DNA of 64,000 nucleotides from a virus. Below the pieces are notes generated by a model. It was not told the DNA's origin. It saw only the letters and a list, made by a program, of their open reading frames with translations, and did not search any database. The stretch covers positions 1-64,000 of IMG/VR virus record IMGVR_UViG_3300043539_002606, one strand, 5' to 3'. How positions within the stretch are numbered: position 1 is the first letter of the stretch; each line of letters opens with the position of its first letter. Made by a program: the position numbers and the translations under genes. Positions 4,543 to 27,337 of this stretch are shown piece by piece.

Positions 4543-4571
4543 ATCTTATACTGTTTTTTCGTATTGTAAAC
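4543..4571 (-). promoter_or_regulatory. Early sigma70-type promoter for uvsX
   Basis: GTTTAC-17 nt-TAAGAT; ATG 6 nt downstream. Confidence 0.6.
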
Positions 4572-4911
4572 CTAATTTTCTATTTAAAAAGTCCCTATCA
4601 GGACTTTGACCTTGCATTTGCCCTCGCGAATATTCAACTGCAAAGCTACAATAGTTAATAGTATCTTTAAAACTATCTTCAATACTCTCAAAGTTTGGAG
4701 AGTAGTTTGGATCATGTTGCATCGCTTCAATGACACTACGAATACGCAGCATTTTAGCCCAAACAATATCAAGCAGTGTGCTTACTCCATTTGGATAATA
4801 GTCAGCTTGTTGAATGCTGCTATATGGATTCTGATAATCATTTCCCTTTTTGAGTTGTAATTCTACACACTCTCGTAATACCTTTACGCTTTCTTTTTCT
4901 TCTAGTCTCAT
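4546..4911 (-). CDS. DUF1599 / nucleotide-modification-associated domain 1 (Nmad1)-like all-alpha protein (probable start 4911)
   Basis: KKGNDY...K.LRI...SIEDSFKDTINY pattern; directly downstream of gp42. Confidence 0.7.
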   Translation of the reverse strand: MRLEEKESVKVLRECVELQLKKGNDYQNPYSSIQQADYYPNGVSTLLDIVWAKMLRIRSVIEAMQHDPNYSPNFESIEDSFKDTINYCSFAVEYSRGQMQGQSPDRDFLNRKLGLQYEKTV

Positions 4912-4912
4912 G

Positions 4913-5593
4913 TTATTTTTGTTTATAAATTTCTCCAGTTTTTGCATAGTGTTCAACAAGATAAAACTGTCTTTCGTATAGATGTAAATTACCAACTTGC
5001 CAGACTATATCTCCAGGCAAGATGCCAAGATCATCAGCTAGCGCATGTTGAACGTGACATTGCCATGCATAGTCATTGCGATAGCCAGCCCATGCATCAT
5101 TGCTTCGCATCTGCACAACTGTTTGCAAGCGACCATCGCGAATTTGATATTGTACTGTATTTGTACAAATGAAATCGCTCATGCCATCTGTATTATATTC
5201 ATAGTGCATACTTGGTCGAGTATAGATCATAACAGCGCGACGGCTATTAGGATTAGTTCTTAATTCAAGCAATACGTTTTGATATTGATTATAGTTCTTT
5301 TCGTGCCAAACCAAATAGCCATAGTTGCTGTTAATATATCCACCTTTACTTGCTACTTGTTGCCAGATCTTTGGCACATCACCCGGAATATCATCTACTC
5401 TTAGACTTTGAGAGAGATACCATGCCAGTTCGCGTGTGACATAATCTTCGTTGACTTCACCGAAAATACTTGGCTCATCAGCAATAAAACTAGCGCCCAA
5501 TATTTCGATTGTTTTGCAACCAGTCTTATCAGTTGTAAACTGTCCTGAATTATAGGCAGTTAAAAAATTATTTCTTATATCTGTTATCAACAT
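4913..5593 (-). CDS. gp42: dCMP hydroxymethylase (thymidylate synthase family); probable start 5593
   Basis: Long blocks match T4 gp42 as recalled: DKTG.KTIEI.GASF.ADEP.IFG, PKIWQQVAS, INSNYG, IYTRPSM, DGMSDF.CTNTVQY, MRSND...G.RNDYAWQ. It has Asp (dCMP-specific) rather than the Asn of thymidylate synthase. Confidence 0.92.
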   Translation of the reverse strand: MLITDIRNNFLTAYNSGQFTTDKTGCKTIEILGASFIADEPSIFGEVNEDYVTRELAWYLSQSLRVDDIPGDVPKIWQQVASKGGYINSNYGYLVWHEKNYNQYQNVLLELRTNPNSRRAVMIYTRPSMHYEYNTDGMSDFICTNTVQYQIRDGRLQTVVQMRSNDAWAGYRNDYAWQCHVQHALADDLGILPGDIVWQVGNLHLYERQFYLVEHYAKTGEIYKQK

Positions 5594-5597
5594 AGAT

Positions 5598-6011
5598 TTA
5601 TACATAACGGTTAATTGTTGCACGATTATCAAGCAACATGATCATATAACGGCGATCAAATTCTTGGATCTTTTCAATTGCTGCGCACAAATTTTGTTCA
5701 TCAATTTTGCCGTGAATATATTCCAATTCAGTTTCAATAAGCCAATTGACCATAAGCTCACGATCGTTATTTAGATATTCGATAAATTCTTCAAAATCTA
5801 TACGAGTTTGATCAGTTGGCCAAATATAATCACCAGCTAAAGTTTCTGTTATATGCTTATAGAAAGTTTCACCTGCTTTAAACAAATGACATCTAATGTC
5901 ATCGTTTTCTGCGACAATGAGACAATCAATTGCATTTGACAATTCATGGCTTGTTGTTTGCATATCTTTTGTTTTTATCATATTGTTATGGAATGTATTA
6001 TAGTCTATCAT
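5598..6011 (-). CDS. Hypothetical protein (true start probably 5981 or later, downstream of the promoter)
   Basis: Fills the gap between gp42 and the primase-like gene; no recognisable motif. Confidence 0.6.
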   Translation of the reverse strand: MIDYNTFHNNMIKTKDMQTTSHELSNAIDCLIVAENDDIRCHLFKAGETFYKHITETLAGDYIWPTDQTRIDFEEFIEYLNNDRELMVNWLIETELEYIHGKIDEQNLCAAIEKIQEFDRRYMIMLLDNRATINRYV

Positions 6012-6038: not shown

Positions 6039-6983
6039 TCATATTAAAACGCTTTCAATTGCCCAATTAAGAGCTCTTTGGCTTTCAGTATGCAAATCTC
6101 GGCTTTTATACCAGCCTCCAGTATCGGCGTCAAGTTGTTTAGCAATCATTTCAAGATCATATGCACTTATATCAAAGCCTCGTTTGAGGGCATTTGCGGC
6201 TGTTGAGCAGAGTATAAGATACATCTTATGATACCAACCACTCGTAGTTAGTGCTCGATATTCTGCAACTGCTTTTTTATTAACAAACGGACAATCAACA
6301 TAGCTGCTCCATTTAGCATTGCGATTTAAACGCTGACGCTGATAATCAAGCAACTTTTGTTTAATCTCATCACTTAGTTGTGCCTTAAAGCTTGTGCTCT
6401 TGAAACTATTGTCATTATACTCAACACTTGCGAGAAGTTCATCAACTTTAATAGGCTCTCCGTTAAAACTATGGAAAAAACTATATGCTTGTGGATATTG
6501 TGCAGGCACATAATACATGCGACTAAGATCTTTAGTTTGTGGATCTCCTAGTTCATTATATCTCTTATTAAGCGCATACCAAAAATGTTTGATTTCACCA
6601 GCTGCGATATCTCGATCGCATGCTAAGACTATTCTAAACTTAGCATGTTCAGCACGACTGCTTGAGCTGTTATAAACCACACACTGACAATCCTTAAAGG
6701 TATCAATAACGCTTTGAGCATCACCATTATAGTCATCAATATCGAGTGCAGCCCAACCAGCCCAGCATTCAACATTGGCATTTGCTCGTGTTGAATCTCG
6801 TTTATAAACAGCTGGACTAATTAGTGGACTGCCCTGTCGTCTTTCATCGCGTTTGGGTTTATAGCCAGGCTGAGTGTATAGATTATGCAAACATTCAACA
6901 AACTGTTCCCAGTTTTCAAACTCACCATGTCGATGAGTCTTGTTATCAAAAATTGATTTGAATATTGTAAAACCTATTTTCAT
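6039..6983 (-). CDS. Archaeo-eukaryotic primase (AEP/PrimPol)-like protein with a helical C-terminal domain
   Basis: hhhDhD motif WAALDIDD, VYNSSSS...KFRIVL, and DPQTKDLSRMYYVP. Confidence 0.7.
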   Translation of the reverse strand: MKIGFTIFKSIFDNKTHRHGEFENWEQFVECLHNLYTQPGYKPKRDERRQGSPLISPAVYKRDSTRANANVECWAGWAALDIDDYNGDAQSVIDTFKDCQCVVYNSSSSRAEHAKFRIVLACDRDIAAGEIKHFWYALNKRYNELGDPQTKDLSRMYYVPAQYPQAYSFFHSFNGEPIKVDELLASVEYNDNSFKSTSFKAQLSDEIKQKLLDYQRQRLNRNAKWSSYVDCPFVNKKAVAEYRALTTSGWYHKMYLILCSTAANALKRGFDISAYDLEMIAKQLDADTGGWYKSRDLHTESQRALNWAIESVLI

Positions 6984-18241: not shown

Positions 18242-19966
18242 CTACTCAGTCTCAGACTTGAGTCTCGTGAAGTTTTTCACCTTCTCAAATTCAAGCTTAC
18301 GTTCAAATTTGCCGTCCTGCATCTCGGCATTGTGCGAGATAACAAAGACTCGTGTGCTCGGATCAAGCGTCTCCATAATCTTGAATAGATTCTCAATGCC
18401 CTCACCATCCAAACTGCCATCAAATACCTCGTCAAGCATAAGCAGATTGGTATTTGCGCTATTCTTCATCTTTGAGATTTGTCTCCATGCAAAGAGCAAG
18501 CTTAAATCAATACGTGCTCTTTCGCCTTCGCTGAAACTAGCATAGCTAAAGTCATCACGATAGCGACTACGCAGGGTCTCGGTGAAATTCTCATCAAGCT
18601 CAAAGCTTACGAAAAAGTCAAGAACTTGCAAATAGTTATTGATCAGCTGATTCATGACTGGCAGATATTGGCGAATAATCTTGGTTTTAATGCCAGTGTC
18701 CTTTAGCATCTCTGCAACCACATCATTATAGTGACGGCTGTCTTGTAGATTGCTCTTAAGATCCGAGAGATTATCTCGTTGACTCTTTAGTGTTTCAAGT
18801 TCAGCTTGTGAGCTTTCAATTGCAACAGCATCAGCAATACTATCTCTGGACTTTTTACACTCAGCCAATCTCTTTTCAAGATTTCGCAAATGCAAGCTGT
18901 TTGCATGAATAGCATTTTGTAATTTGGAGAGTTCATTCATCTGCTCTGTAAGAGCTCGAGCTTTTTCTGCAGCATGTGAAATTGTTTCTGTGATGCTTGT
19001 ATCACCAGCTGCCAACTCAGTTGCTTTGTGGGTGCATGTCACAAGTGCTTTTTCTCGAGTCTCGCTAGAGATGTCCTGTGTGCAGGTAGGGCAGTGTGTA
19101 TGCTCAGAATAGAATGCGCTCTGCTCTTGCAGATCCTTGTATTTGAGTTTGATTTGGGTTTTTAGGCCTTGTAACTCTGCAATCTTTTCTCGTTGCTTAT
19201 CGAGTTTGATCTTTACATCTGGGGCATGTGCATTATAGGTTTGTAGCTTGCTTGAGTTTTCCTCTAGCACACTCGCTATTTCGGCATCAATCTCTGCAAT
19301 CTCAATCTCAAGTTTATCAGAGCTATCACCACTAATCTTTTGTAGCTTTTCAATGTGACCATGCTGCAATCGCACTCGCTCACGTAAACTCTCAAGTTGA
19401 GTCTCTGTATAGCGAAGCTGTTCTTTGAGCTTGCCTTGATTTTCTTTAAGCAGCGTATTCATTTTACTAAAGATACTAATGTCAAGCAGATCTTCAATAA
19501 CAGTACGACGCTGACCTTGGGGCAGTTGCATAAATGGTATAAAGTTACCACTGCCGAGAACAATGACCTGGTGAAAGCTCTTATGATTTAGTTTTAGGAT
19601 GTTTGTCTCAAGAATCTTTTGATAATCACGATTATGTGATTCCTGATTAAGCATCTCTCCGTCAAGCCAGATCTCAAAGATATTTGGCTTTTGACCTCGT
19701 ACTACTCGATATTGTTTGGTGCCGCAACGAAACCATATTTCAACGAGCAGACCTTTGCCGTTGATGCTATTCACAAGCTGTGTTTTGTTAATGCCTCGAT
19801 GAGGCTTGCCAAAAAGTACAAAGCTAATCGCATCAAGCAGCAAACTCTTGCCACTGCCGTTTTTTCCAACAATAAGAGTTGATCTATATCCTTCGAGATC
19901 AACTTCAATAGGAGAAGCACCAACGCTCAGGAAATTTACATATTTAATTTTTTCGAAAATGATCAT
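18242..19966 (-). CDS. gp46: Rad50/SbcC-like recombination endonuclease subunit
   Basis: GKNGSGKS, CPTC zinc hook, FSEGE signature, LDEVFD and ISH motifs. Confidence 0.97.
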   Translation of the reverse strand: MIIFEKIKYVNFLSVGASPIEVDLEGYRSTLIVGKNGSGKSLLLDAISFVLFGKPHRGINKTQLVNSINGKGLLVEIWFRCGTKQYRVVRGQKPNIFEIWLDGEMLNQESHNRDYQKILETNILKLNHKSFHQVIVLGSGNFIPFMQLPQGQRRTVIEDLLDISIFSKMNTLLKENQGKLKEQLRYTETQLESLRERVRLQHGHIEKLQKISGDSSDKLEIEIAEIDAEIASVLEENSSKLQTYNAHAPDVKIKLDKQREKIAELQGLKTQIKLKYKDLQEQSAFYSEHTHCPTCTQDISSETREKALVTCTHKATELAAGDTSITETISHAAEKARALTEQMNELSKLQNAIHANSLHLRNLEKRLAECKKSRDSIADAVAIESSQAELETLKSQRDNLSDLKSNLQDSRHYNDVVAEMLKDTGIKTKIIRQYLPVMNQLINNYLQVLDFFVSFELDENFTETLRSRYRDDFSYASFSEGERARIDLSLLFAWRQISKMKNSANTNLLMLDEVFDGSLDGEGIENLFKIMETLDPSTRVFVISHNAEMQDGKFERKLEFEKVKNFTRLKSETE

Positions 19967-21048
19967 AGACTATCAAGGGCTTGGGCTTCAACATAAAGTT
20001 CTTGCAATAATGTTTTAATTCGATCTCTGTCAAGATCTGTTTCAACAGCATCTACATAGTTATTAAGCAAACTAACTGTGTCTGTTGCAACTGTAGATTC
20101 ATCGATCGTTACATTGCTTGCATTATATTCATCAAAATTTTCAACTGTCTTTACTTCAAATGGATTTGTTGCTTGTATTGCATCAACAAATTTGTCAAAG
20201 AGATAGGGATTCTTTTTGACTCTCACAACTAGCTTGACATAGGTCGATGTTAATGCACTAAAATCATATTCAGCGAGATCAGCATAGATGTTATCATCTG
20301 CATCGCTATCATCATAAACAAGCTTATTGAAAAGAGTAATGGGATTACGAATTGCAGTTAGCTCACGAGTCTCACTATCAAGAATATGAAAATATTTTGG
20401 ATCATCACAATCTGCCCATGTTAATTCATAGGGTGTGCCAAGATAGTGTATATTTCCTTTGTCACTTTTTGTATGATAGTGACCACTCAACACACTCTCA
20501 TAGCGAGAGAAAAGTTCTGCGTTCATGCCATGACTTGCAGCTGGCATGCCTTTCATCATCTCAAAGCCAGCAAGCTCTAGATGTGCACCAAGTATTGGAG
20601 CTTGGGCAGTTTGTATAAATTCAATGCTGCTAGCATAATTCTCTGGATTAATCCATGGCAGCAGTGCAATCTTTAATCCATCATAATCCAAAATTGTTGG
20701 ACTCATATGCAGCTTAATAACATCGCTATGCAACATGACAATCTCTTGCAAGCTGCAGACATCGTTTGTGCTCTTGTAATAGACATCATGGTTGCCAGGA
20801 ATAATATTCATCGTCATGCCATATTCACGAAGCTTTTCAATGAAATTGGCTTTGTTTGCAGCCAATGCTTTGATGTTCGTAAATTTGCGATGATCATAAT
20901 AATCACCTAGATGCAGGATTTCAGTGATGCCTTGTTTTTTACATTCAGGAAAAAATACTTCATCATAGAATCTCTTTTCATTGTTAATAAAGACATCGCT
21001 GCCATTTTTGATCCCGCTATGGGTATCTGTGATAATAGCTATTTTCAT
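19963..21048 (-). CDS. gp47: Mre11/SbcD-like recombination nuclease subunit
   Basis: ITDTH, HLGD, PGNHD, AHLEL and SGHYH motifs. Confidence 0.97.
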   Translation of the reverse strand: MKIAIITDTHSGIKNGSDVFINNEKRFYDEVFFPECKKQGITEILHLGDYYDHRKFTNIKALAANKANFIEKLREYGMTMNIIPGNHDVYYKSTNDVCSLQEIVMLHSDVIKLHMSPTILDYDGLKIALLPWINPENYASSIEFIQTAQAPILGAHLELAGFEMMKGMPAASHGMNAELFSRYESVLSGHYHTKSDKGNIHYLGTPYELTWADCDDPKYFHILDSETRELTAIRNPITLFNKLVYDDSDADDNIYADLAEYDFSALTSTYVKLVVRVKKNPYLFDKFVDAIQATNPFEVKTVENFDEYNASNVTIDESTVATDTVSLLNNYVDAVETDLDRDRIKTLLQELYVEAQALDSL

Positions 21049-21689
21049 AGTGTTGCAAAGAAATCACTCAATGGACCAAGTTCTGGTGTTTTTTTAGCTG
21101 GTCGACCTCTTTTCTTTTTGGTCGGCAATGGCTCATGATCCTTAACGCTGCAAAGATCATCATTATAAAAGTCTCCATCAAGTTTATGACGAGCTCGTTC
21201 AATCATGCTCTCTCCGATCTGACCGCTGTCGTCACCAAAGTCTGCAAATGAATCAAGACTTGAACCTTCAATAAGTTTCTGCTTAATCTCGGTTTGTTTC
21301 TTTTCTTTTTCAATGCGTCTCAAAAAGGCATAATAACTGATTTGGGTAAAATAGCTAAATGCATTTGGTGTGCCAGTTCGAGTAGGAGCATCAATATTAA
21401 AGTTATTGACAACCTTAATGCAATTCTCAACTGCATCCATAACCATATCATCTCGATAGCTATAGTTCATGAAGTTGGGACTTCTTGATAAGCCATTGGC
21501 AATCTGATAAATCCCCAATGCAATATAGTCTGTAACTACTGGATCCTCAATGCCGCTTGCTCGGGCAGTTTTAACGCTTTGAACATATGAGGCCAAAGCC
21601 AAACTAAGTTCTTTATTGTTAATATAATCGGATCCTTCTTTTCTTTTACGTGTACTTTTTACTTTTTTTGGTTGATCTTCTTCAATCAT
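21045..21689 (-). CDS. gp55: Late-transcription sigma factor (probable start MIEED at 21689)
   Basis: YINNKEL, NFMNYSYRDDMVMDAVENC and NAFSYFTQISYYAFLRRIEKEKK motifs. Confidence 0.96.
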   Translation of the reverse strand: MIEEDQPKKVKSTRKRKEGSDYINNKELSLALASYVQSVKTARASGIEDPVVTDYIALGIYQIANGLSRSPNFMNYSYRDDMVMDAVENCIKVVNNFNIDAPTRTGTPNAFSYFTQISYYAFLRRIEKEKKQTEIKQKLIEGSSLDSFADFGDDSGQIGESMIERARHKLDGDFYNDDLCSVKDHEPLPTKKKRGRPAKKTPELGPLSDFFATL

Positions 21690-21696
21690 GCTATCT

Positions 21697-21725
21697 AGTA
21701 TACCACAAAACAAAAGTTTGTAAAC
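21697..21725 (-). promoter_or_regulatory. Early promoter for gp55-47-46
   Basis: GTTTAC-17 nt (ending TGG)-TATACT; ATG 7 nt downstream. Confidence 0.7.
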
Positions 21726-21747
21726 AATTATTTTTATGAATTTTTTG

Positions 21748-21776
21748 GTTTACAAACAATCAGATTCATGTATAAT
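21748..21776 (+). promoter_or_regulatory. Antisense-oriented sigma70-type promoter, copy 1
   Basis: GTTTAC-17 nt-TATAAT, divergent from the gp55 promoter. Confidence 0.75.
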
Positions 21777-21815
21777 AGGTGCCATGCACCTTCGGCTGAA
21801 TGTAATGAAGCCGAT
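21768..21815 (+). repeat. 48-bp exact repeat, copy 1 (-10 box plus two hairpins)
   Basis: ATGTATAATAGGTGCCATGCACCTTCGGCTGAATGTAATGAAGCCGAT, identical to 35162-35209. Confidence 0.95.
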
Positions 21816-21879
21816 AGATGTTGCTGATTGTTTGCTCTTAAAATATCTATAATGATATTATAATCTCATAAGAGCATGA

Positions 21880-22893
21880 TTATTCTTTAATCTTTCGAAA
21901 GCCAAGTAAGGTATGTTTTACTGCCATCCACATGTCTAGATACTTATAGTTGCTTAATCTGCCTGTAAACATTACATTCTTTTCTTCGGCTTTAAGCTTT
22001 TCATATTGGGAGTATTGACGCTGTGCATCTCCCCATGGTATTGGATAATAAGGTATATCATTCTCTCTTGCCTCTTTTGGCAATTCGCTTGTAATGACAG
22101 TCAAGCCTTTATGATCTGGGTTAAAATAGCTATGATCATAGATTCTTGTATATGGCACATCAGCTCTATTTTGATTGACAATAAATGTTTCTTGTTTTGG
22201 AACAAATGCCTTATGATGAAATTCCAAACTACGATATGGCAATCGTCCATAGCAATAGTCATAATATTCATCAATTTTTCCAGTATAGACCAATAGATCT
22301 CGAGGAGCAGATTTCCATGCATCACCATCGGAGTTTATATGCACAGTTATATTCTCATGATCAAGCATGCTGGCAAACATAGCGCTATAGCCATGCTTTG
22401 GCAAGCACTGATATTTTTGATGTCGAAACCATGTTGGATTTTCATCATCTGCTGTTTGAGGTATGCGATTTGTAATGGTTTGTGGGATTTCTTCAAATGG
22501 CACACCCCATTGTTTTTCGCTATATTCCTTAAAGAAATATTCTCGAATCTCCTCTGGCTCAAGTTCTCGACCCAGTGCTGCAACTGTTGCCCGTGAATAT
22601 GGCAATGGCACAACTCCCAATCGAGTATCTCCTAATGGTCTTAATTCAAATGGAATCCATTCAGTGAATCGACTCAAAAATTCAAAAACCTCTTCATCAT
22701 CAGTATGAAAAATATGAGGACCATAGGTGTGTACTCTTACGTGACCCATTAACTGATCTGCACAATTGCCTCCAATATGATCACGTGATTCATATATTGT
22801 TACGTTCGCGCCAGCATCAGCAAAGCATCGAGCAGCTGTGCAGCCACTTAGGCCTGCTCCAACCACTACTATATTTTTATTAACATATTCCAT
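21880..22893 (-). CDS. glf: UDP-galactopyranose mutase (FAD-dependent pyranose-to-furanose mutase)
   Basis: VVGAGLSG, IGGNC, HTYGPHIFHT, YSEKQWG, YTGKID, LPYRSL, YTRI, PYYP and GRLSNYKYLDM motifs. Confidence 0.93.
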   Translation of the reverse strand: MEYVNKNIVVVGAGLSGCTAARCFADAGANVTIYESRDHIGGNCADQLMGHVRVHTYGPHIFHTDDEEVFEFLSRFTEWIPFELRPLGDTRLGVVPLPYSRATVAALGRELEPEEIREYFFKEYSEKQWGVPFEEIPQTITNRIPQTADDENPTWFRHQKYQCLPKHGYSAMFASMLDHENITVHINSDGDAWKSAPRDLLVYTGKIDEYYDYCYGRLPYRSLEFHHKAFVPKQETFIVNQNRADVPYTRIYDHSYFNPDHKGLTVITSELPKEARENDIPYYPIPWGDAQRQYSQYEKLKAEEKNVMFTGRLSNYKYLDMWMAVKHTLLGFRKIKE

Positions 22894-23557
22894 TGTCTTT
22901 TGCATATCTATAGACTAATTCTTCTTGATATTTTGTATCTGTATATGTTGCAATAATTTCATCGAGATTCTCATGAAATGCCTTTGCTATTTTCTTCATA
23001 TTCTGAAGATCACCACAATAAAAATTATCAACACCAATTACTGATCTGCTTAATCTTGGATGTCTAAAGACGAACTCTCTGGTAAAAATTAATTTATTGC
23101 ATATTGACATATTTGCTTGACATATTGGTCGGGTGAAATAGTCCCAACGTGTATTAATGATTCTAAAATAATCATCTGGTATTTTCTCTAATCCGCTGTG
23201 TATGCCAGCCCACATATTTTTCCAACTTATTTTTGGTATTTTACTTTGACAAATTTGACCATCAATCGTTTGATGTAGTTTTAATTTGCTATCATCAAGA
23301 ATCGTGATATTTTTAATAATATCCTTATGCTCAATAAAATAGTGTTCAATAAGATTTGGAGTAACAATCAATTTTGCACTATTATTGACTTCGCGATAGC
23401 TGCTATCAGCTTCAGCATATTTCCAACTTTGACAATAGACGTGTAAATCAACATCGCGTTTGCTTCTTAAATTTTGTACAAATTCCTTTAGACTTGGACT
23501 AAATAAGCCATCACGAATATGTCCTCGAATATAAAGGGCTATTTTGTGTTTGTTCAT
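22880..23557 (-). CDS. Hypothetical protein overlapping glf and uvsW; possibly a nucleotide-sugar-dependent transferase
   Basis: IALYIRGHIR start, INTRWD and GVDNFY motifs. The function is inferred from context only. Confidence 0.6.
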   Translation of the reverse strand: MNKHKIALYIRGHIRDGLFSPSLKEFVQNLRSKRDVDLHVYCQSWKYAEADSSYREVNNSAKLIVTPNLIEHYFIEHKDIIKNITILDDSKLKLHQTIDGQICQSKIPKISWKNMWAGIHSGLEKIPDDYFRIINTRWDYFTRPICQANMSICNKLIFTREFVFRHPRLSRSVIGVDNFYCGDLQNMKKIAKAFHENLDEIIATYTDTKYQEELVYRYAKDNGIC

Positions 23558-25038
23558 ATCTTAACTGTATATATTTTGTAATTAAAGCCTTCTTTATCAT
23601 AGATAGCAACACGCTCTGCTCCATGCTTTAGGCTGAAGTTTTTCTTTTTCTTCCATGAGAAGTTATCGCTAATATCATAGACAGTGGTAGCTTGACCATT
23701 ATCGCTCAATCGCAGGCCACGACCAATGCTTTGTAGAATTTTAATTTGGCTTTTGGTTGGTGCTGCAAAAATAATATTATGCAAATTGCGTATATTAATG
23801 CCTGTGCTAAAAGTAGCGCTGCTCGCAACAATAACTGCATTTGACTCGCTCTCTACTTCTCCACGTACTTTTTCGCGAACATCTGTATCTGTTTCACCAC
23901 TGACATAATAGATCTTACGATCTGGCTCCGCTGCAACCAATGCAGCATGCAACGGCTTGCCATGTTTTACTACATAGTTGAAAATTACAAGTGTATTGCC
24001 TTTGAGGCCTCGAGCAAGATTAACAATAAACCTATTGCGGGCAGAATGAGAAATAATCACATCAATCTCGCTAGCATAATCAAGCTTGCTTACTGCCTTT
24101 TTAACTTCATCATCATAATCAAGCACGATGCAGTGTATATTCAACTCTGCAAGTGTCTTGCTCTCCATAAGAGCCTTTGTTGTTGTGACTTTAAATATTG
24201 GCCCAAAATGTCCAACAAGCACACGCTCATTGCATTTGCTGCCATCAAGTGTGCCCGTTGTGCCAATGCGATAGCTTGCATTGGTCAGTGTATTCATAAT
24301 TGTATTGAGACTCTTTGCTTTAAACTGATGTGCTTCATCCCCAACAATCATGCCATATTTTTTGAACCAACTTTCAGGACATGTGATTGCACTCTGCCAT
24401 GTTGTGATTGTCACTCGTGTGCCAGCAACTTCTTTTTCTTTGCCGCTATAGATGCGATGCACTAGTTTTTCAGAATCAAATTCATTATCATGAGTGCTAT
24501 AGTCTGCAAAATCGCTGGCTAGCTGTTCAACAAGACTGGTCGTTGGCACAACAACTAGTGCCTTTTCAGTCTCATGATCAATATACCAACGCAGCAGCAT
24601 ATAAATGATCAAGCTCTTGCCGCTGCCAGTTGGACTCAAGACAAGTGTTCTGCCGCTTGTCAAGCTTTGTACAACTGCTTCAACCTGATAATCATGTGGT
24701 GTTATGCTATTTCCACGAGCAGATAGATTTAATTTTGAAATATAGTCAATCACCTCTTGACGAGATGGCAAAGGAGCTCGCAAGCTGTCATCATAATCAA
24801 CTGCATAGCCTCGTTCTTTTGCAAATTTTGCTAGCTCACCAATCAAGCCATAAGGCAGTGTATGCGATCTTAAATTAAACAATCTGATTTTGCCATCCCA
24901 GAGTTTATTACGATATGCAGGAATAAACTTATAGCCTTCTGCATAAAACGTAAAATGCTCACCAAGCTCCATGAGTGCACCAGTATCGGCGCTTCTCACA
25001 AAGATCTCTGCTTCATTCTTTTTACTTAGTTTAAACAC
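23554..25038 (-). CDS. uvsW: SF2 DNA/RNA-DNA helicase (probable GTG start at 25038)
   Basis: WDGKIRLF, SPTGSGKS, DEAH, GTTGT and QSIGRGLR motifs. Confidence 0.96.
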   Translation of the reverse strand: MFKLSKKNEAEIFVRSADTGALMELGEHFTFYAEGYKFIPAYRNKLWDGKIRLFNLRSHTLPYGLIGELAKFAKERGYAVDYDDSLRAPLPSRQEVIDYISKLNLSARGNSITPHDYQVEAVVQSLTSGRTLVLSPTGSGKSLIIYMLLRWYIDHETEKALVVVPTTSLVEQLASDFADYSTHDNEFDSEKLVHRIYSGKEKEVAGTRVTITTWQSAITCPESWFKKYGMIVGDEAHQFKAKSLNTIMNTLTNASYRIGTTGTLDGSKCNERVLVGHFGPIFKVTTTKALMESKTLAELNIHCIVLDYDDEVKKAVSKLDYASEIDVIISHSARNRFIVNLARGLKGNTLVIFNYVVKHGKPLHAALVAAEPDRKIYYVSGETDTDVREKVRGEVESESNAVIVASSATFSTGINIRNLHNIIFAAPTKSQIKILQSIGRGLRLSDNGQATTVYDISDNFSWKKKKNFSLKHGAERVAIYDKEGFNYKIYTVKI

Positions 25039-25477
25039 CTGCTTGGAATCTCTTAAAGTCAATAATGTTCTTGATTGTTTGATGTCTCCAACGCAACGTA
25101 TCAAGTATTTCTTTGCATGTATCAACATACACACCTATATATTCACATGCCATTTTGCACTCACTGATGTCAGTGTCTGTGTTATAATACATATCCATAT
25201 CACCCTTAAGTGGTTTATTCATGCCATGAAATGGATCATATATCCAGCCTCGCGCATCCATTTCATCCTTTGTCATTTTGCCATTATAATAGAGCCACTT
25301 ATCTTTTTTAAGTATGGCAAGATCAAGCTCTTTCTTTTTTAATCTCAGTTTGGCAACTGTATGGAATTCAAGATATTTGCTATGCAGCATTGCACCTCGT
25401 AAGGTTGTTTCATCAAGCGCATGCTCACTAATCTTTGAATCATTTGCCCATTGTTTTAATAGCTCTTCGACATCCAT
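25031..25477 (-). CDS. uvsY: Recombination mediator
   Basis: LHSKYL, KWLYYNGK and IKNIIDFKRFQAG motifs; gp3-uvsY-uvsW synteny. Confidence 0.9.
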   Translation of the reverse strand: MDVEELLKQWANDSKISEHALDETTLRGAMLHSKYLEFHTVAKLRLKKKELDLAILKKDKWLYYNGKMTKDEMDARGWIYDPFHGMNKPLKGDMDMYYNTDTDISECKMACEYIGVYVDTCKEILDTLRWRHQTIKNIIDFKRFQAGV

Positions 25478-25485
25478 GAATTTAT

Positions 25486-25944
25486 CTATACAAGATCAAA
25501 TTCGTCATAACTGAAACTTATGTCAAAGCTAGCATAGCCTGGCTCACCACTGCTATTAAATTCAATTGAGCTCAAACTGGTTGGAAATGCATTTGCAAAT
25601 CGAAAGCCGCGACTAACATTAAAATGGCTTGTTAGAGTCTCAATAGTGATATCAGTTGTTTTAATATCTGGTCCATCCTTTGCATTATGTTTAAGCCATG
25701 AGAAGCATTCGAGATATGCTGTCATCTTTTCATCACAAAGCAGTGTACAATTAAGAGCATCATATGTCAGGCTATTTCCAGGTGTAAATCCAGGCAAATT
25801 TCGATATTTAGTCGATATGGCTTCGCTCGAAACACCAGGTAAAGTAACACTAGTTGCAAAAAATGACAACTTTGGAAATTCATTTGTTCCGCCAATTATC
25901 ACGCGAAATTGACTATTGGCTAATAGGCTATTATCAATGCTCAT
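25486..25944 (-). CDS. gp3: Tail completion / tube terminator protein
   Basis: SVTLPGVS, LCDEKMTAY.E...W and NAFPTSLS motifs; position after gp23; CATAAATA 5 nt upstream. Confidence 0.85.
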   Translation of the reverse strand: MSIDNSLLANSQFRVIIGGTNEFPKLSFFATSVTLPGVSSEAISTKYRNLPGFTPGNSLTYDALNCTLLCDEKMTAYLECFSWLKHNAKDGPDIKTTDITIETLTSHFNVSRGFRFANAFPTSLSSIEFNSSGEPGYASFDISFSYDEFDLV

Positions 25945-25959
25945 GACTATATTTATGCA

Positions 25960-25990
25960 AAATAAAGCAGGGGAGCCGTAGCTCCCCTGC
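25960..25990 (-). terminator. Terminator after the major capsid gene
   Basis: GCAGGGGAGC-TACG-GCTCCCCTGC followed by TTTATTTT. Confidence 0.85.
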
Positions 25991-26026
25991 TGGGTTTCGT
26001 CCTAAGGTAAATGGACGTTAAGTTAA

Positions 26027-27337
26027 TTAGAATCCGTATTGACCGGAGAAGTTAGGCTCACCGCTGTTGATGTTAGTCACGCTAAAGTTACGGAAGTAAA
26101 CGTTAGAATTTTCAGTGATTGCACCAAGAGTGTTTGTTGGACCAGAACCTGCGCTGAATGGGTTAGCAACTAGACCGTAACGAGTCTTGAAGCCAATTTT
26201 TGGCTGGAAGCTTGCTTGGTCAACTGCACGAACCATAGTAAGTGGTACATATGGGCAGTAGTAGATACCTGCGTCATAAGCATTCGAACCTTTGAAACCA
26301 ACAGTGATATAATCAGCTGTGCTATAAGGGTCGATGAATACTTTAAGACGGCCATTGATGATACCAGCAAATGTGTTGCCAGTGTCGTCAACGTTAAGGC
26401 TTGTTGACAATGCTGGAGCATAGTCAAGTACACCTGCTGCTGCAAGAGCGCTAGCTACGTTGCTTGAGCAGATAACGAAGTTACCTTTACCACGACGTGT
26501 TGCTTTAGCAATCGCGTTAGCTTCTTTTTCAATTTGGAAAAGAAGAGACTTGAATTTTTCAACAGCCCAACGACCGTCTGCATCAACTGCAAGGTCAAAG
26601 TCACCGCTGATACCACCTGTGCTAGCAGACCAGTTGATCTTGTTGATAACCTCACGGTTGATTTCAGCAAGAATTTCTGTGCTCAAGATGTTAGCAAGTT
26701 CAGTTTCAGCGTCAAGGCCGTGAACACTCTTAAGGTCTTGTGCAAGCTCCATTGAGTATTCAGCTTTAAGCTGACGAGTTTTAGCTTCAACAATGCATTT
26801 TTCGATTGTGAAACCCATTTCGCCTGAAATGTTACCTTCACCAGCAGAACGCTCAAGGCCTTGACCAGTTGGTGTACCGGATGTACCAGAGAATGCGGTG
26901 TTAGCTTCATTGAAAAGCGCTTCTGGGTTATTAGCGTTACCACCAGTTGATTGAGTTGCGTCAAGACCATCACCTTTTCCTGCTGCGTCATGGCTATTGT
27001 AACGAGACTTCATCGCAAAGATAAGACCTGTTGGTCCTGTCATTGGCTGAACGCCAGCTACGTCATAAGCGATAAGGTTAGGCATCGCGCGGCGTACAAG
27101 GCTGATGAGAACTGGATCCCAGCGATCAACACCTGCACCTTGATAGTTACCGCCTTGGGCGCTAACATCAGTTTCAGTTAGGTATTGTGCTTGTTCGCGA
27201 GCCTCACGAGCTGCTTTTTGTTGGTTTTCCAAAAGAACAGCAGTTACACTCTTACGATATGTGTCTGCGAATTTTGGTGCGTCGGCAGCCTCAAGAATAG
27301 GTGCCCATTTTTTTTCTAGTGCTTCTGATTTAAACAT
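26027..27337 (-). CDS. gp23: Major capsid protein
   Basis: LISLVRRAMPNLIAYDVAGVQPMTGPTGLIFAM, LKAEYSMELAQDLK and FQPKIGFKTRYG motifs. Confidence 0.99.
   Translation of the reverse strand: MFKSEALEKKWAPILEAADAPKFADTYRKSVTAVLLENQQKAAREAREQAQYLTETDVSAQGGNYQGAGVDRWDPVLISLVRRAMPNLIAYDVAGVQPMTGPTGLIFAMKSRYNSHDAAGKGDGLDATQSTGGNANNPEALFNEANTAFSGTSGTPTGQGLERSAGEGNISGEMGFTIEKCIVEAKTRQLKAEYSMELAQDLKSVHGLDAETELANILSTEILAEINREVINKINWSASTGGISGDFDLAVDADGRWAVEKFKSLLFQIEKEANAIAKATRRGKGNFVICSSNVASALAAAGVLDYAPALSTSLNVDDTGNTFAGIINGRLKVFIDPYSTADYITVGFKGSNAYDAGIYYCPYVPLTMVRAVDQASFQPKIGFKTRYGLVANPFSAGSGPTNTLGAITENSNVYFRNFSVTNINSGEPNFSGQYGF

What the first reader, a model, noticed from the sequence alone, without database searches (positions are those of the whole stretch)
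21880..23557. Phage UDP-pyranose mutase + unknown partner: candidate furanosyl-hmC DNA (or virion) glycosylation system
Seen: glf and an uncharacterised 225-aa gene overlap each other and uvsW, inserted in the core next to gp55 rather than in a surface-polysaccharide island. Known: Glf makes UDP-galactofuranose and also accepts UDP-arabinopyranose; T-even phages sugar-coat modified cytosine (glucose in T4, arabinose in RB69-like phages) to block restriction and CRISPR nucleases. No alpha- or beta-glucosyltransferase is recognisable in the window. Inference: gp42 supplies hmC, Glf supplies a furanose donor and the 225-aa protein may be the transferase, giving galactofuranosyl- or arabinofuranosyl-hmC by a route I do not know to have been described. 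Glycosylation of fibres or of the host surface is the alternative.
Basis: partly seen in the sequence, partly recalled or inferred. Interest (0 to 1): 0.8.

Follow-up and report, generated by a model that had tools for sequence, protein, structure and literature searches.

The report
Phage galactofuranose cassette beside hmC pathway
A marine T4-like phage that makes hydroxymethylcytosine DNA carries a mobile two-gene cassette (a UDP-galactofuranose-making mutase plus a new virus-only glycosyltransferase-like protein) that most likely puts a furanose sugar on its DNA, although a role in decorating virion or host glycans is not excluded.

Summary
Glf (21880-22905, minus) and a 225-aa ORF (22880-23557, minus) overlap each other, and the ORF's start overlaps the uvsW stop. 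They form a 1.7-kb cassette that a 93-99% identical sibling phage lacks.

ORF225 matches no Pfam, PHROG or NCBIfam family. It folds as a GT-A-like nucleotide-sugar transferase without a DXD motif. It is almost virus-only and sits next to glf in 39 of 43 viral loci.

The window's gp42 is a true T4-type dCMP hydroxymethylase, with a MazG-like pyrophosphatase nearby. No alpha- or beta-glucosyltransferase homologue was found.

Phage Glf genes sit repeatedly inside cytosine-modification gene sets:
- gp42 - unknown 350-aa protein ("GAF350") - Glf, in 50 of 80 environmental T4-like loci
- TET - GAF350 - Glf, in phage C48C1
- thymidylate-synthase homologue - beta-glucosyltransferase - Glf, in Lactobacillus phage ATCCB

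A 2026 paper already proposes a phage Glf feeding galactosyl-5-hydroxycytosine.

Against DNA as the target:
- Most relatives keep the cassette beside tail-fibre genes.
- Distant ORF225 homologues lie in glycan clusters or multi-glycosyltransferase fusions of giant viruses.
- gp42-positive genomes without the cassette exist.

Verdict: DNA furanosylation about 0.55, virion or host glycan about 0.3. This is a new variant of a known kind. The scan's other notes on this genome (hmC block, hypermodification cluster) fit this reading.

The parts
21880..22905 (-). glf: UDP-galactopyranose mutase, 341 aa (alternative start ATG 22893)
   Evidence: Pfam GLF 3.7e-57 and NAD_binding_8 5.9e-18. PDB UGMs 3hdq 5.7e-64 and 1wam 1.5e-62, with Y155, W160, R174, R280, E301, Y314, Y349 and D351 (K. 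pneumoniae numbering) conserved and Y185 changed to W. TIGR00031 scores 261.6 bits, below the 303.75 cut-off; about 25-30 residues of the helical domain are missing.
22880..23557 (-). ORF225: virus-restricted GT-A-fold protein, candidate galactofuranosyltransferase
   Evidence: No Pfam, PHROG or NCBIfam family. AF2 model pLDDT 79.5, pTM 0.80. VIA Z 10.4 to mannosylglycerate synthase, 10.0 to Mnn9, 9.8 to GTB, 9.7 to IspD. Foldseek to GT6 and IspD at E about 1e-4. Invariant RGHIRD 11-16, D89, R137-x-D139, D177-N178, D199, E212, Y216. pI 8.9, no TM segment. 484 representatives in 1.84 billion proteins. One locus in 185,579 prokaryote species genomes.
21853..23551 (.). 1.7-kb cassette (glf + ORF225), present in the window and absent from the sibling contig G032
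   Evidence: blastn: G032 aligns to window 21000-21852 (93.8%) and 23552-23745 (91.8%), with about 49 bp in between. gp55 and uvsW lie 194 nt apart in G032.
23554..25134 (-). uvsW helicase; its stop overlaps the ORF225 start (ATGA), so the cassette has no promoter of its own here
   Evidence: Pfam UvsW_N, ResIII, Helicase_C. Sequence read. No sigma70-like site directly upstream of ORF225 or glf.
21045..21713 (-). gp55 late sigma factor, downstream neighbour
   Evidence: phrog_234 at 1.5e-46. In T4 the alpha-gt gene lies between genes 47 and 55.
4913..5632 (-). gp42: T4-type dCMP hydroxymethylase, the likely source of hmC
   Evidence: E 6.1e-87 and about 58% identity to T4 dCMP hydroxymethylase 1b5d. 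FICTN catalytic Cys and MRSND...YRND, that is Asp at ThyA positions 169 and 177 as in T4, unlike the SQN of RB69 and RHph_N34 5hoC synthases (diagnostic from PMC13326640).
6980..7387 (-). MazG-like nucleotide pyrophosphohydrolase (candidate dCTPase analogue of T4 gp56)
   Evidence: phrog_671 at 8e-25 and phrog_12019 MazG-like. Syntenic with gp42 in most gp42 loci.
4546..4995 (-). DUF1599-like small gene between uvsX and gp42. It fills the slot where relatives carry GAF350 (with or without Glf) next to DUF1599; no GAF350 gene is present here.
   Evidence: phrog_1485 and phrog_18404. Synteny gp42-DUF1599-GAF350-uvsX in the G002 lineage and gp42-GAF350-Glf-uvsX in others. No GAF350 hit in G000.

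Best explanation
The cassette is an accessory sugar-donor plus transferase unit of the phage's hydroxymethylcytosine (hmC) DNA modification system.

Proposed steps:
1. gp42, helped by the MazG-like pyrophosphatase, makes hmdCMP, so replicated DNA carries hmC. gp42 is shown by homology; the chemistry is inferred.
2. Glf converts host UDP-galactopyranose into UDP-galactofuranose. The enzyme family and its catalytic residues are shown; the activity is inferred.
3. ORF225, a small soluble basic GT-A-fold enzyme without a DXD motif, transfers the furanose to the hmC hydroxyl in DNA or to a group already attached there. This step is inferred from gene linkage only.

The expected result is galactofuranosyl-modified DNA that resists restriction and CRISPR nucleases.

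The cassette is mobile among aquatic T4-like phages. In most relatives it sits near the tail-fibre genes behind its own sigma70-like promoter. Here it is spliced onto the end of uvsW.

A DUF3431-like gene lies in the same genome, inside a gene set that relatives keep directly beside gp42. It probably works with the cassette, because Glf, DUF3431 and an ORF225-like domain occur fused in one protein elsewhere.
For: 1. hmC supply: gp42 matches T4 dCMP hydroxymethylase at E 6e-87, with Asp169 and Asp177 as in T4. MazG is adjacent. No alpha-gt or beta-gt is found in G000 or in the complete G002.
2. Glf is competent by its residues.
3. ORF225 has a GT-A fold and is adjacent to glf in 39 of 43 loci. 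Most loci carry two tandem paralogues, as with the serial DNA arabinosyltransferases of DLP3 (PMC13326640).
4. Phage Glf lies inside cytosine-modification gene sets:
   - Of 80 GAF350 loci, 62 have Glf directly downstream (median gap 6 bp), 67 have gp42 within 5 kb, and 50 have both. The order is gp43-MazG-DUF1599-gp42-GAF350-Glf-uvsX, which is T4's beta-gt slot.
   - C48C1 has an overlapping TET/JBP (PF12851, 3.3e-17) - GAF350 - Glf operon and no thymidylate-synthase homologue.
   - ATCCB has a TS homologue - beta-gt (PF09198, 9e-22) - Glf.
   - Aeromonas Aes012 and Erwinia FBB1 have Glf-GAF350 plus a T4-type gp42.
5. Complementarity: the only lineage whose GAF350 lacks an adjacent Glf is that of G002. 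Its single Glf is the Glf-ORF225-ORF225' module. G002 is 97% complete and gp42-positive.
6. Expression: 27 of 28 glf-first modules carry T[TG]TAC-N16-20-TAAA[AG]T and none carries the late TATAAATA box. In the window the cassette is translationally coupled to uvsW.
7. ORF225 is essentially absent from prokaryote genomes: one low-GC islet in 185,579 species.
8. DUF3431 link: the fusion P0071 is Glf+DUF3431+ORF225-like. G000's DUF3431-like gene (E 4e-7 to P0071) is inserted between c334 and SGNH331, genes that follow gp42 directly in eight or more relatives.
9. Precedents: GT-A DNA glycosyltransferases, and glycosyltransferases that depend on an adjacent sugar epimerase (bioRxiv 10.1101/2023.12.21.572611); Glf proposed for Gal-5hoC (PMC13326640).
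Against: - No direct evidence that DNA is the acceptor.
- The window's Glf type is only 29-39% identical to the gp42-linked Glfs.
- In 37 of 43 loci the cassette lies between tail-fibre or fibre-assembly genes and holin-like and neck genes.
- The distant module L041 sits in a GT90 - Glf - ORF225-like - pyruvyl transferase - GT2/GT92 glycan cluster.
- ORF225-like domains are fused to GT61, GT41 and Mannosyl_trans3.
- Giant-virus homologues sit beside ordinary thymidylate synthases and no glf is detected within the fetched flanks.
- gp42-positive genomes without the cassette exist: G032, and G031 at 99% completeness.
- The only prokaryote copy lies next to a multi-TM protein and a GT2.
- No GAF350 is found in the 46%-complete G000.
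- ORF225 lacks the DXD/DDD motif of known GT-A DNA transferases.
- Co-occurrence of the cassette with gp42 rests on only two informative records, G000 and G002.
Confidence: 0.55

Rival explanations
1. The cassette builds galactofuranose-containing glycans on something other than DNA. The acceptor would be virion proteins (for example the collagen-like tail fibres encoded next to it in most relatives) or host envelope glycans, as in giant-virus capsid and fibril glycosylation. The gp42 in the same genome would be coincidental.
For: - The cassette neighbours tail-fibre (phrog_5073), fibre-assembly (phrog_3304), holin-like and neck genes in 37 of 43 loci.
- L041 is a multi-glycosyltransferase and pyruvyl-transferase glycan cluster containing Glf and an ORF225-like gene.
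- ORF225-like domains are fused to GT61, GT41, Mannosyl_trans3 and DUF3431.
- The nearest Atlas and BFVD relatives are giant-virus glycosyltransferases.
- Giant-virus loci carry a canonical thymidylate synthase only.
- The prokaryote copy lies beside a GT2 and a multi-TM protein.
- gp42-positive relatives lack the cassette.
Against: - The cassette has sigma70-like rather than late-type promoters in 27 of 28 glf-first loci.
- In the window it is coupled to uvsW.
- ORF225 is a soluble, TM-free, basic protein.
- A one-transferase cassette is a thin basis for a glycan.
- The G002 lineage needs this Glf if GAF350 uses UDP-Galf.
- Glf is linked to gp42, TET or TS homologues in four other phage groups.
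- The family is near-absent from bacteria, where O-antigen Galf transferases would be expected.
Confidence: 0.3
2. ORF225 is not a glycosyltransferase. It is an IspD/GlmU-like sugar-1-phosphate nucleotidyltransferase that makes the NDP-sugar which Glf then isomerises. The actual transferase would be encoded elsewhere (GAF350, DUF3431-like or c300).
For: - IspD and GlmU nucleotidyltransferases score almost as well as glycosyltransferases in structure searches (Z 9.7 against 10.4; Foldseek).
- The invariant RGHIR loop directly after strand 1 recalls the GxGxR phosphate loop (family knowledge from memory).
- There is no DXD motif.
Against: - Tandem paralogues in most loci fit serial transferases better than duplicate pyrophosphorylases.
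- Fusions are with glycosyltransferase domains, not kinases.
- The Atlas's nearest cluster is auto-named 'Glycosyltransferase family protein'.
- Some Glf cassettes obtain UDP-Gal through a GalE-like epimerase instead.
- The Gly-rich loop is not a true GxGxR.
Confidence: 0.08
3. The cassette is a passenger moron with no role in this phage, for example one recently acquired and on its way to loss.
For: It is present or absent between near-identical genomes. It occupies a different position from most relatives.
Against: - Both ORFs are intact.
- Catalytic residues of Glf are conserved.
- 34 columns of ORF225 are invariant across 19 sequences at 39-94% identity.
- The precise ATGA coupling to uvsW is kept in L001, at 80-86% identity.
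Confidence: 0.04

Closest known systems
Rhizobium phage RL38J1 / Pootjesviridae glycosyl-5-hydroxycytosine system (Lee et al., NAR 2026, PMC13326640)
   Same: A large myovirus encodes a thymidylate-synthase-family base-modifying enzyme, a UDP-galactopyranose mutase and glycosyltransferases. Galactose is the base-proximal sugar, and the authors propose phage-made UDP-Galf as donor.
   Different: The base there is 5-hydroxycytosine, made by an Asp169Asn synthase. The window's gp42 keeps Asp169, the hmC type. The RL38J1 transferases are GT-B-like, whereas ORF225 is GT-A-like and unrelated. The window's Glf is about 30% identical to the Glf of the related Pootjesviridae phage RHph_N34; RL38J1's own Glf was not compared.
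Phage 5hmC sugar-hypermodification clusters, 'subclass II' (GT + adjacent sugar epimerase; bioRxiv 10.1101/2023.12.21.572611; Burke et al., PNAS 2021, PMC8256090)
   Same: A small glycosyltransferase, often GT-A fold, is paired with an NDP-sugar-tailoring enzyme that supplies its special donor. It acts on 5hmC in DNA, and successive glycosyltransferases add successive sugars.
   Different: The partner here is a pyranose-furanose mutase, not an epimerase. hmC comes from gp42 before replication, not from MT+TET. ORF225 lacks the R...DDD...EDY/F signature, and no JGT or TarP match was seen among the top structural hits.
T4 alpha- and beta-glucosyltransferases
   Same: These are accessory, variable genes of gp42-positive T4-like phages that decorate hmC. 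T4 alpha-gt lies in the 47-55 neighbourhood and beta-gt between uvsX and gp42.
   Different: They have the GT-B fold and use UDP-glucose directly. There is no sequence similarity to ORF225 and no homologue in G000 or G002.
RB69/DLP3 poly-arabinofuranosyl-5-hydroxycytosine
   Same: Furanose sugars sit on a C5-oxygenated cytosine in T4-like phages, and paralogous transferases add successive residues.
   Different: The donor is UDP-Araf, built from ribulose-5-phosphate by an isomerase, a kinase/uridylyltransferase and a phosphatase, not by a mutase. None of those genes was seen here.
Giant-virus multi-domain glycosyltransferases (the DUF3431- and DUF5672-type GT-A domains found here; chlorovirus- and mimivirus-type capsid glycan enzymes, from memory)
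   Same: These are the closest sequence and structure relatives of ORF225. Glf+DUF3431+ORF225-like fusions exist.
   Different: Those proteins are large fusions presumed to build capsid or fibril glycans. No hmC enzyme is nearby.

Membership tests
UDP-galactopyranose mutase (Glf; PF03275 / TIGR00031) | N-terminal FAD-binding Rossmann motif (GxGxxG) | tested here: met
   VVGAGLSG at residues 13-20; NAD_binding_8 at 5.9e-18.
UDP-galactopyranose mutase (Glf; PF03275 / TIGR00031) | Full-length GLF domain above the curated threshold | tested here: met
   PF03275 at 193.7 bits against a 26.3 cut-off, covering profile positions 2-203 of 203.
UDP-galactopyranose mutase (Glf; PF03275 / TIGR00031) | NCBIfam equivalog cut-off | tested here: not met
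   TIGR00031 scores 261.6 bits, below 303.75. The match is in two stretches and part of the helical domain is shortened.
UDP-galactopyranose mutase (Glf; PF03275 / TIGR00031) | Substrate-binding and catalytic residues (K. pneumoniae R174, R280, W160, Y155, Y314, Y349, E301, D351; residue list recalled from memory) | tested here: met
   All align identically in the phmmer alignment to 1wam; Y185 is replaced by W.
UDP-galactopyranose mutase (Glf; PF03275 / TIGR00031) | Interconversion of UDP-Galp and UDP-Galf | not testable with these tools
   Requires an enzyme assay.
GT-A fold glycosyltransferase | Single Rossmann-like alpha/beta/alpha nucleotide-sugar-binding domain | tested here: met
   AF2 pTM 0.80. 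VIA Z 10.4 (rmsd 3.8, 163 aligned) to 2bo4, Z 10.0 to 3zf8, Z 9.8 to 2y7a. Foldseek to GT6 at E 1e-4.
GT-A fold glycosyltransferase | DXD metal-binding motif after strand 4 | tested here: not met
   The conserved motif at that position is [NS][TM]R-x-D (R137, D139). No DXD is conserved in 19 sequences. Metal-independent GT-A enzymes exist, so this does not exclude transferase activity.
GT-A fold glycosyltransferase | Membership of a curated glycosyltransferase sequence family | tested here: not met
   No Pfam, NCBIfam or PHROG hit for any of 19 members.
JGT/TarP-like phage DNA GT-A transferases | R...DDD...EDY/F active-site signature and structural match to JGT or TarP | tested here: inconclusive
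   ORF225 has R11/R15, D88-D89 and E212-E213-x-x-Y216 but no DDD. TarP is not among the top 50 VIA rows. No JGT model was available.
T4 alpha-/beta-glucosyltransferase (GT-B, PF11440/PF09198) | Two-Rossmann-domain GT-B fold and sequence homology | tested here: not met
   ORF225 is a single-domain GT-A. T4 a-gt and b-gt give no tblastn hit in G000 or G002.
IspD/GlmU-type sugar-phosphate nucleotidyltransferase | GxGxR(L/M) loop after strand 1 and a structural match | tested here: inconclusive
   Z 9.7 to IspD 1w77. The loop reads I-R-G-H-I-R-D, which is not a canonical GxGxR.
T4-type dCMP hydroxymethylase (gp42) | Thymidylate-synthase fold with catalytic Cys, Asp at the ThyA-N177 position (dCMP specificity) and Asp retained at ThyA-169 (not the Asn of 5hoC synthases) | tested here: met
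   E 6.1e-87 to 1b5d. FICTN and MRSND...YRND are identical in pattern to T4; RB69 and RHph_N34 show SQN. The criterion comes from PMC13326640.

The most novel reading that the evidence does not exclude
ORF225 founds a new, DXD-less, virus-only GT-A family of DNA galactofuranosyltransferases. Galactofuranosyl-hydroxymethylcytosine, made with phage Glf together with either ORF225 or the equally uncharacterised GAF350 family, is then a widespread DNA modification of aquatic T4-like phages, Aeromonas Tulanevirus, Erwinia FBB1, Kyanoviridae phage C48C1 and Lactobacillus phage ATCCB. No paper in the library searched here describes it.
Probability: 0.3. Interest if true: 0.8.

Novelty: new variant of a known kind. 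Interest (0 to 1): 0.66.

Why it matters
Sugar-coated cytosines are a main way in which large lytic phages evade restriction enzymes and CRISPR nucleases. They are also a source of tools for hmC mapping and of nuclease-resistant DNA.

Furanose sugars on DNA are so far shown only as arabinofuranose on 5-hydroxycytosine. A galactofuranosyl-hmC would be a new DNA modification. It would come with a simple two-gene donor-plus-transferase cassette that should work in E. coli, which already makes UDP-Galp.

The comparative data point to at least two uncharacterised transferase families, ORF225 and GAF350, that travel with Glf. Cultured phages carrying GAF350 with Glf are available (Aeromonas 25 and Aes012, Erwinia FBB1, C48C1), so the idea can be tested directly; Lactobacillus ATCCB has Glf next to a beta-gt homologue.

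The data also show that T4-type hmC chemistry, known from enterobacterial and Aeromonas phages, is common in marine and freshwater T4-like phages, with several alternative decoration gene sets.

If the cassette instead glycosylates virions, it would be a rare case of Galf decoration by a T4-like phage.

Tried and rejected
Contexts of the long contigs holding P0002 and P0016 could not be read.
- Searching gp42 in 24 module-bearing IMG/VR records gave nothing, but all are 4-27% complete fragments, so this is uninformative. G001, G003 and G004 break exactly at the gp43 side of the gp42 block.
- Searching Glf in 12 fragments of the G002 lineage gave nothing for the same reason.
- The 331-aa gene of the downstream cluster was folded in the hope of finding a GT-B DNA transferase. 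It is an SGNH/GDSL esterase-like protein instead.
- The GAF350 fold is unresolved: no PDB sequence hit, hhalign against beta-gt at probability 11%, and only an Atlas lead to a cluster with 12% GT1-like members.
- tblastn of ORF225 against 50,697 phage records found no match.
- The thymidylate-synthase-like genes near giant-virus ORF225 homologues were checked as possible hydroxymethylases. They are canonical thymidylate synthases.
- Literature searches for Galf-hmC or for Glf in Aeromonas T4-like phages found nothing.
- The arabinofuranose reading was considered and put aside. RB69 and DLP3 use a dedicated UDP-Araf pathway absent here, and GalE-like epimerases accompany some Glf cassettes.
- Complex prediction, sequencing-run look-ups and read laying were not used.
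Full report
**1. What is there**

The window comes from a marine T4-like myovirus. The IMG/VR record is 83,606 bp and about 46% complete.

The minus strand carries gp46 (18242-19966), gp47 (19963-21048) and gp55 (21045-21713). These are followed by Glf (21880-22905), a 225-aa ORF (22880-23557), uvsW (23554-25134), uvsY, a tail-tube-like gene and gp23.

The nearest cultured relatives at DNA level are phage C48C1 (Kyanoviridae), Pelagibacter phage HTVC008M and cyanomyoviruses.

The ORF225 stop lies inside the start of glf, and its ATG overlaps the uvsW TGA.

**2. The two proteins**

*Glf* is a UDP-galactopyranose mutase:
- Pfam GLF E 3.7e-57, and solved mutases at E 1e-62 to 6e-64.
- In the alignment to K. 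pneumoniae UGM, residues Y155, W160, R174, R280, E301, Y314, Y349 and D351 are kept. The list of important residues is from memory; the alignment is.
- It is about 40 residues shorter than bacterial enzymes and falls below the NCBIfam equivalog cut-off.

*ORF225* has no Pfam, PHROG or NCBIfam family, and neither does any of its 18 first homologues.
- The 19-sequence alignment has 34 invariant columns: RGHIRD 11-16, W45, E49, S53-Y54, W112-K113, R137-x-D139, G175-x-D177-N178, D199, E212 and Y216.
- It is basic (pI 8.9) and has no membrane segment.
- An AlphaFold model (pLDDT 79.5, pTM 0.80) matches the GT-A / nucleotide-diphospho-sugar transferase fold.
- VIA gives Z 10.4 to mannosylglycerate synthase, 10.0 to Mnn9 and 9.8 to blood-group GTB, but also 9.7 to IspD. 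Foldseek gives GT6 and IspD at E about 1e-4.
- In the viral structure library the best matches are giant-virus and cyanophage proteins, some named glycosyltransferase or DUF5672.
- There is no DXD motif. The equivalent position carries R-x-D.

Fold alone therefore says 'nucleotide-sugar enzyme'. It cannot separate a transferase from a pyrophosphorylase.

**3. The pair is a unit, and a mobile one**

- A scan of IMG/VR found 43 loci with an ORF225 homologue. In 39 of them glf is directly adjacent.
- The order is either ORF225 then glf (as here), or glf, ORF225 and a second ORF225 paralogue.
- The three or four exceptions are giant-virus-like contigs.
- A profile search of 1.84 billion representatives found 484 family members.
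- Among the long ones, P0071 is a single protein with Glf, DUF3431 and an ORF225-like domain. Others fuse the domain to DUF3431, GT61, GT41 or Mannosyl_trans3.
- In 185,579 prokaryote species genomes there is one copy. It is again next to glf, as a 32%-GC islet in 61-64% GC DNA beside a transposase remnant.
- A sibling contig (G032; gp42 99%, gp55 96%, uvsW 95% identical) has about 49 bp where the window has 21853-23551.

The cassette is therefore an accessory insertion or deletion.

**4. Does the phage make hmC?**

Yes, as far as sequence can tell.
- The thymidylate-synthase-family gene at 4913-5632 matches T4 dCMP hydroxymethylase at E 6e-87 and about 58% identity.
- Lee et al. (NAR 2026, PMC13326640) show that 5-hydroxycytosine synthases differ by Asn at ThyA position 169.
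- The window's protein reads MRSND...YRND like T4, whereas RB69 and Rhizobium phage RHph_N34 read SQN.
- A MazG-like pyrophosphohydrolase lies next door.
- T4 alpha-gt and beta-gt have no homologue in this record or in the 97%-complete relative G002.
- Among 50,697 cultured phage records, gp42 at this similarity occurs in 771, and all the organism names shown are enterobacterial, Aeromonas or Acinetobacter phages; no cyanophage or pelagiphage appears among them, though 13 minor name groups were not displayed.

**5. Is phage Glf tied to cytosine modification?**

This was the most informative line.

Next to Glf in Aeromonas phage Aes012, Erwinia phage FBB1 and phage C48C1 lies an uncharacterised protein of about 350 aa. 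I call it GAF350.

- *G002.* The same protein sits between uvsX and gp42, which is the slot of beta-gt in T4.
- *Environmental loci.* A scan with GAF350 returned 80 T4-like loci. Glf follows GAF350 directly in 62 (median gap 6 bp). gp42 lies within 5 kb in 67. Both are present in 50. The order is gp43-MazG-DUF1599-gp42-GAF350-Glf-uvsX-gp41.
- *Epimerase variants.* Three loci without gp42 in reach have a GalE-like epimerase directly upstream of GAF350-Glf. This points to galactose rather than arabinose.
- *C48C1.* This phage has no thymidylate-synthase homologue at all. However, the gene overlapping GAF350 upstream is a TET/JBP dioxygenase (PF12851, 3.3e-17). That gives a TET-GAF350-Glf operon.
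- *Lactobacillus phage ATCCB.* It has a TS homologue, a beta-glucosyltransferase homologue (PF09198 9e-22; 31% identical to T4 b-gt) and Glf in a row.
- *Published case.* In RL38J1, galactose is the sugar on 5-hydroxycytosine and the authors propose a phage mutase making UDP-Galf.

Together these make five phage groups in which Glf accompanies an enzyme that creates a C5 hydroxyl or hydroxymethyl group on cytosine.

No paper in the library describes galactofuranosyl-hmC.

**6. Linking this to the window's cassette**

The window's Glf belongs to a different Glf lineage. It is 56-65% identical to the Glfs of nearly all other ORF225 cassettes (86% in L001, 38% in the distant L041). It is only 29-39% identical to the GAF350-linked ones. 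The link is therefore indirect, and three observations support it.

- *Complementary distribution.* The 18 GAF350 loci without an adjacent Glf are one truncated locus plus the G002 lineage. G002's only Glf is the Glf-ORF225-ORF225' module 53 kb away. If GAF350 needs UDP-Galf, that module supplies it.
- *DUF3431 and the gp42-linked gene set.* The window's genome has a gene set at 79.1-83.6 kb, outside the window, with genes I call c300, c334, DUF3431-like, SGNH331 and PLP315.
  - In at least eight relatives, including the 99%-complete G031, c300-c334-SGNH331 or c300-PLP315-SGNH331 follow gp42 directly.
  - Only here is a DUF3431-like gene inserted between c334 and SGNH331. It aligns to the DUF3431 domain of the Glf-DUF3431-ORF225 fusion (E 4e-7).
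  - DUF3431-like genes lie next to Glf in two further loci.
- *Expression signals.* 27 of 28 glf-first cassettes carry a conserved T[TG]TAC-N16-20-TAAA[AG]T sigma70-like promoter with an extended -10 box. None carries the T4-type late box. In the window the cassette is translationally coupled to uvsW.

Precedents exist for GT-A DNA transferases and for glycosyltransferases that depend on an adjacent sugar-tailoring enzyme.

**7. What speaks against DNA**

- In 37 of 43 loci the cassette lies between tail-fibre or fibre-assembly genes and the holin-like and neck genes.
- The most distant cassette (L041) sits in a GT90 - Glf - ORF225-like - pyruvyl transferase - GT2/GT92 cluster, which looks like glycan synthesis.
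- Giant-virus homologues have only a canonical thymidylate synthase nearby.
- gp42-positive genomes lack the cassette: G032, and G031 at 99% completeness.
- No GAF350 is present in the 46% of the genome in hand.
- Only two records (G000 and G002) are informative for co-occurrence of the cassette with gp42.

**8. Verdict**

The most likely reading, about 0.55, is that the cassette is an add-on of the hmC decoration system. Glf would make UDP-Galf, and ORF225 would transfer it to hmC or to a group already placed there.

ORF225 co-occurs with two different gp42-linked gene sets: GAF350 in G002 and the c300 set here. That slightly favours a secondary, chain-extending role.

The rivals and their weights are:
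- Galf glycosylation of virion or host glycans: about 0.3.
- ORF225 as a nucleotidyltransferase: about 0.08.
- An inert passenger: about 0.04.

This is a new variant of a known kind of system. Glycosylated C5-oxygenated cytosine, and a glycosyltransferase paired with a donor-tailoring enzyme, are both known. The pyranose-furanose mutase on an hmC background, the DXD-less virus-only GT-A family, and the breadth of the Glf-gp42 association are not described in the literature I could search.

Noticed in passing
L087:17148-18173 (G002 57148-58173, minus); L045:7110-8186; L049:6071-7132; L044:4970-6004; loci L095-L174: An uncharacterised phage protein family of about 350 aa ('GAF350'). It sits between uvsX and gp42 (the T4 beta-gt slot) or directly upstream of Glf in 80 environmental T4-like loci, Aeromonas Tulanevirus, Erwinia FBB1 and phage C48C1. 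It is a strong candidate for the primary hmC (galactofuranosyl?) transferase. Its fold is unresolved.
   Followed up: partly
L048:15140-19606 (G000 79,143-83,606, outside the window): A gene set of c300, c334, DUF3431-like, an SGNH/GDSL esterase-like protein (331 aa, GDSH motif) and a PLP-enzyme-like protein (315 aa). In eight or more relatives c300-c334-SGNH331 or c300-PLP315-SGNH331 lie directly downstream of gp42. This looks like a second, alternative hmC hypermodification set and supports the scan's note e1-6082014.
   Followed up: partly
L044:3555-7002 (phage C48C1, OQ984149 49583-53030): An overlapping operon of TET/JBP dioxygenase, GAF350 and Glf, in a cultured Kyanoviridae phage that has no thymidylate-synthase homologue. 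All three genes are annotated as hypothetical in the record.
   Followed up: partly
L050:3061-6116 (Lactobacillus phage ATCCB): A thymidylate-synthase homologue (MRSND...PYD, cytosine type), a T4-like beta-glucosyltransferase and Glf, all adjacent. This is a candidate Gram-positive phage with furanosylated hmC.
   Followed up: no
window 6039-6983 (minus): A 314-aa protein between MazG and gp42 matches phage primase families (phrog_9765 at 1.4e-41). It is an extra AEP/primase-like gene inside the hmC block.
   Followed up: no
G002 91011-93497; G032 25512-27089; loci L097, L101, L104, L105: uvsW is in two pieces about 1 kb apart in G002 and has one internal TAA in G032. uvsX and gp41 are split by 1-1.3 kb inserts in several GAF350 loci. 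These may be introns, inteins or homing-endonuclease insertions.
   Followed up: no
L061:4500-7000 (Pseudomonadales MAG JASLQO010000011.1): The only prokaryote copy of the Glf + ORF225-like pair. It is a 29-36% GC islet in 61-64% GC DNA, next to a transposase remnant and followed by a multi-TM 555-aa protein and a GT2. It looks like recent transfer from a virus.
   Followed up: partly
window 21714-21879: The gp55-glf intergenic region holds a divergent sigma70-like site (TTTACA-16-TATAAT on the plus strand, 11 of 12 matches) and hairpins. The same region is kept in G032, which lacks the cassette. It corresponds to the scan's note e1-6082004 and was not examined further.
   Followed up: no
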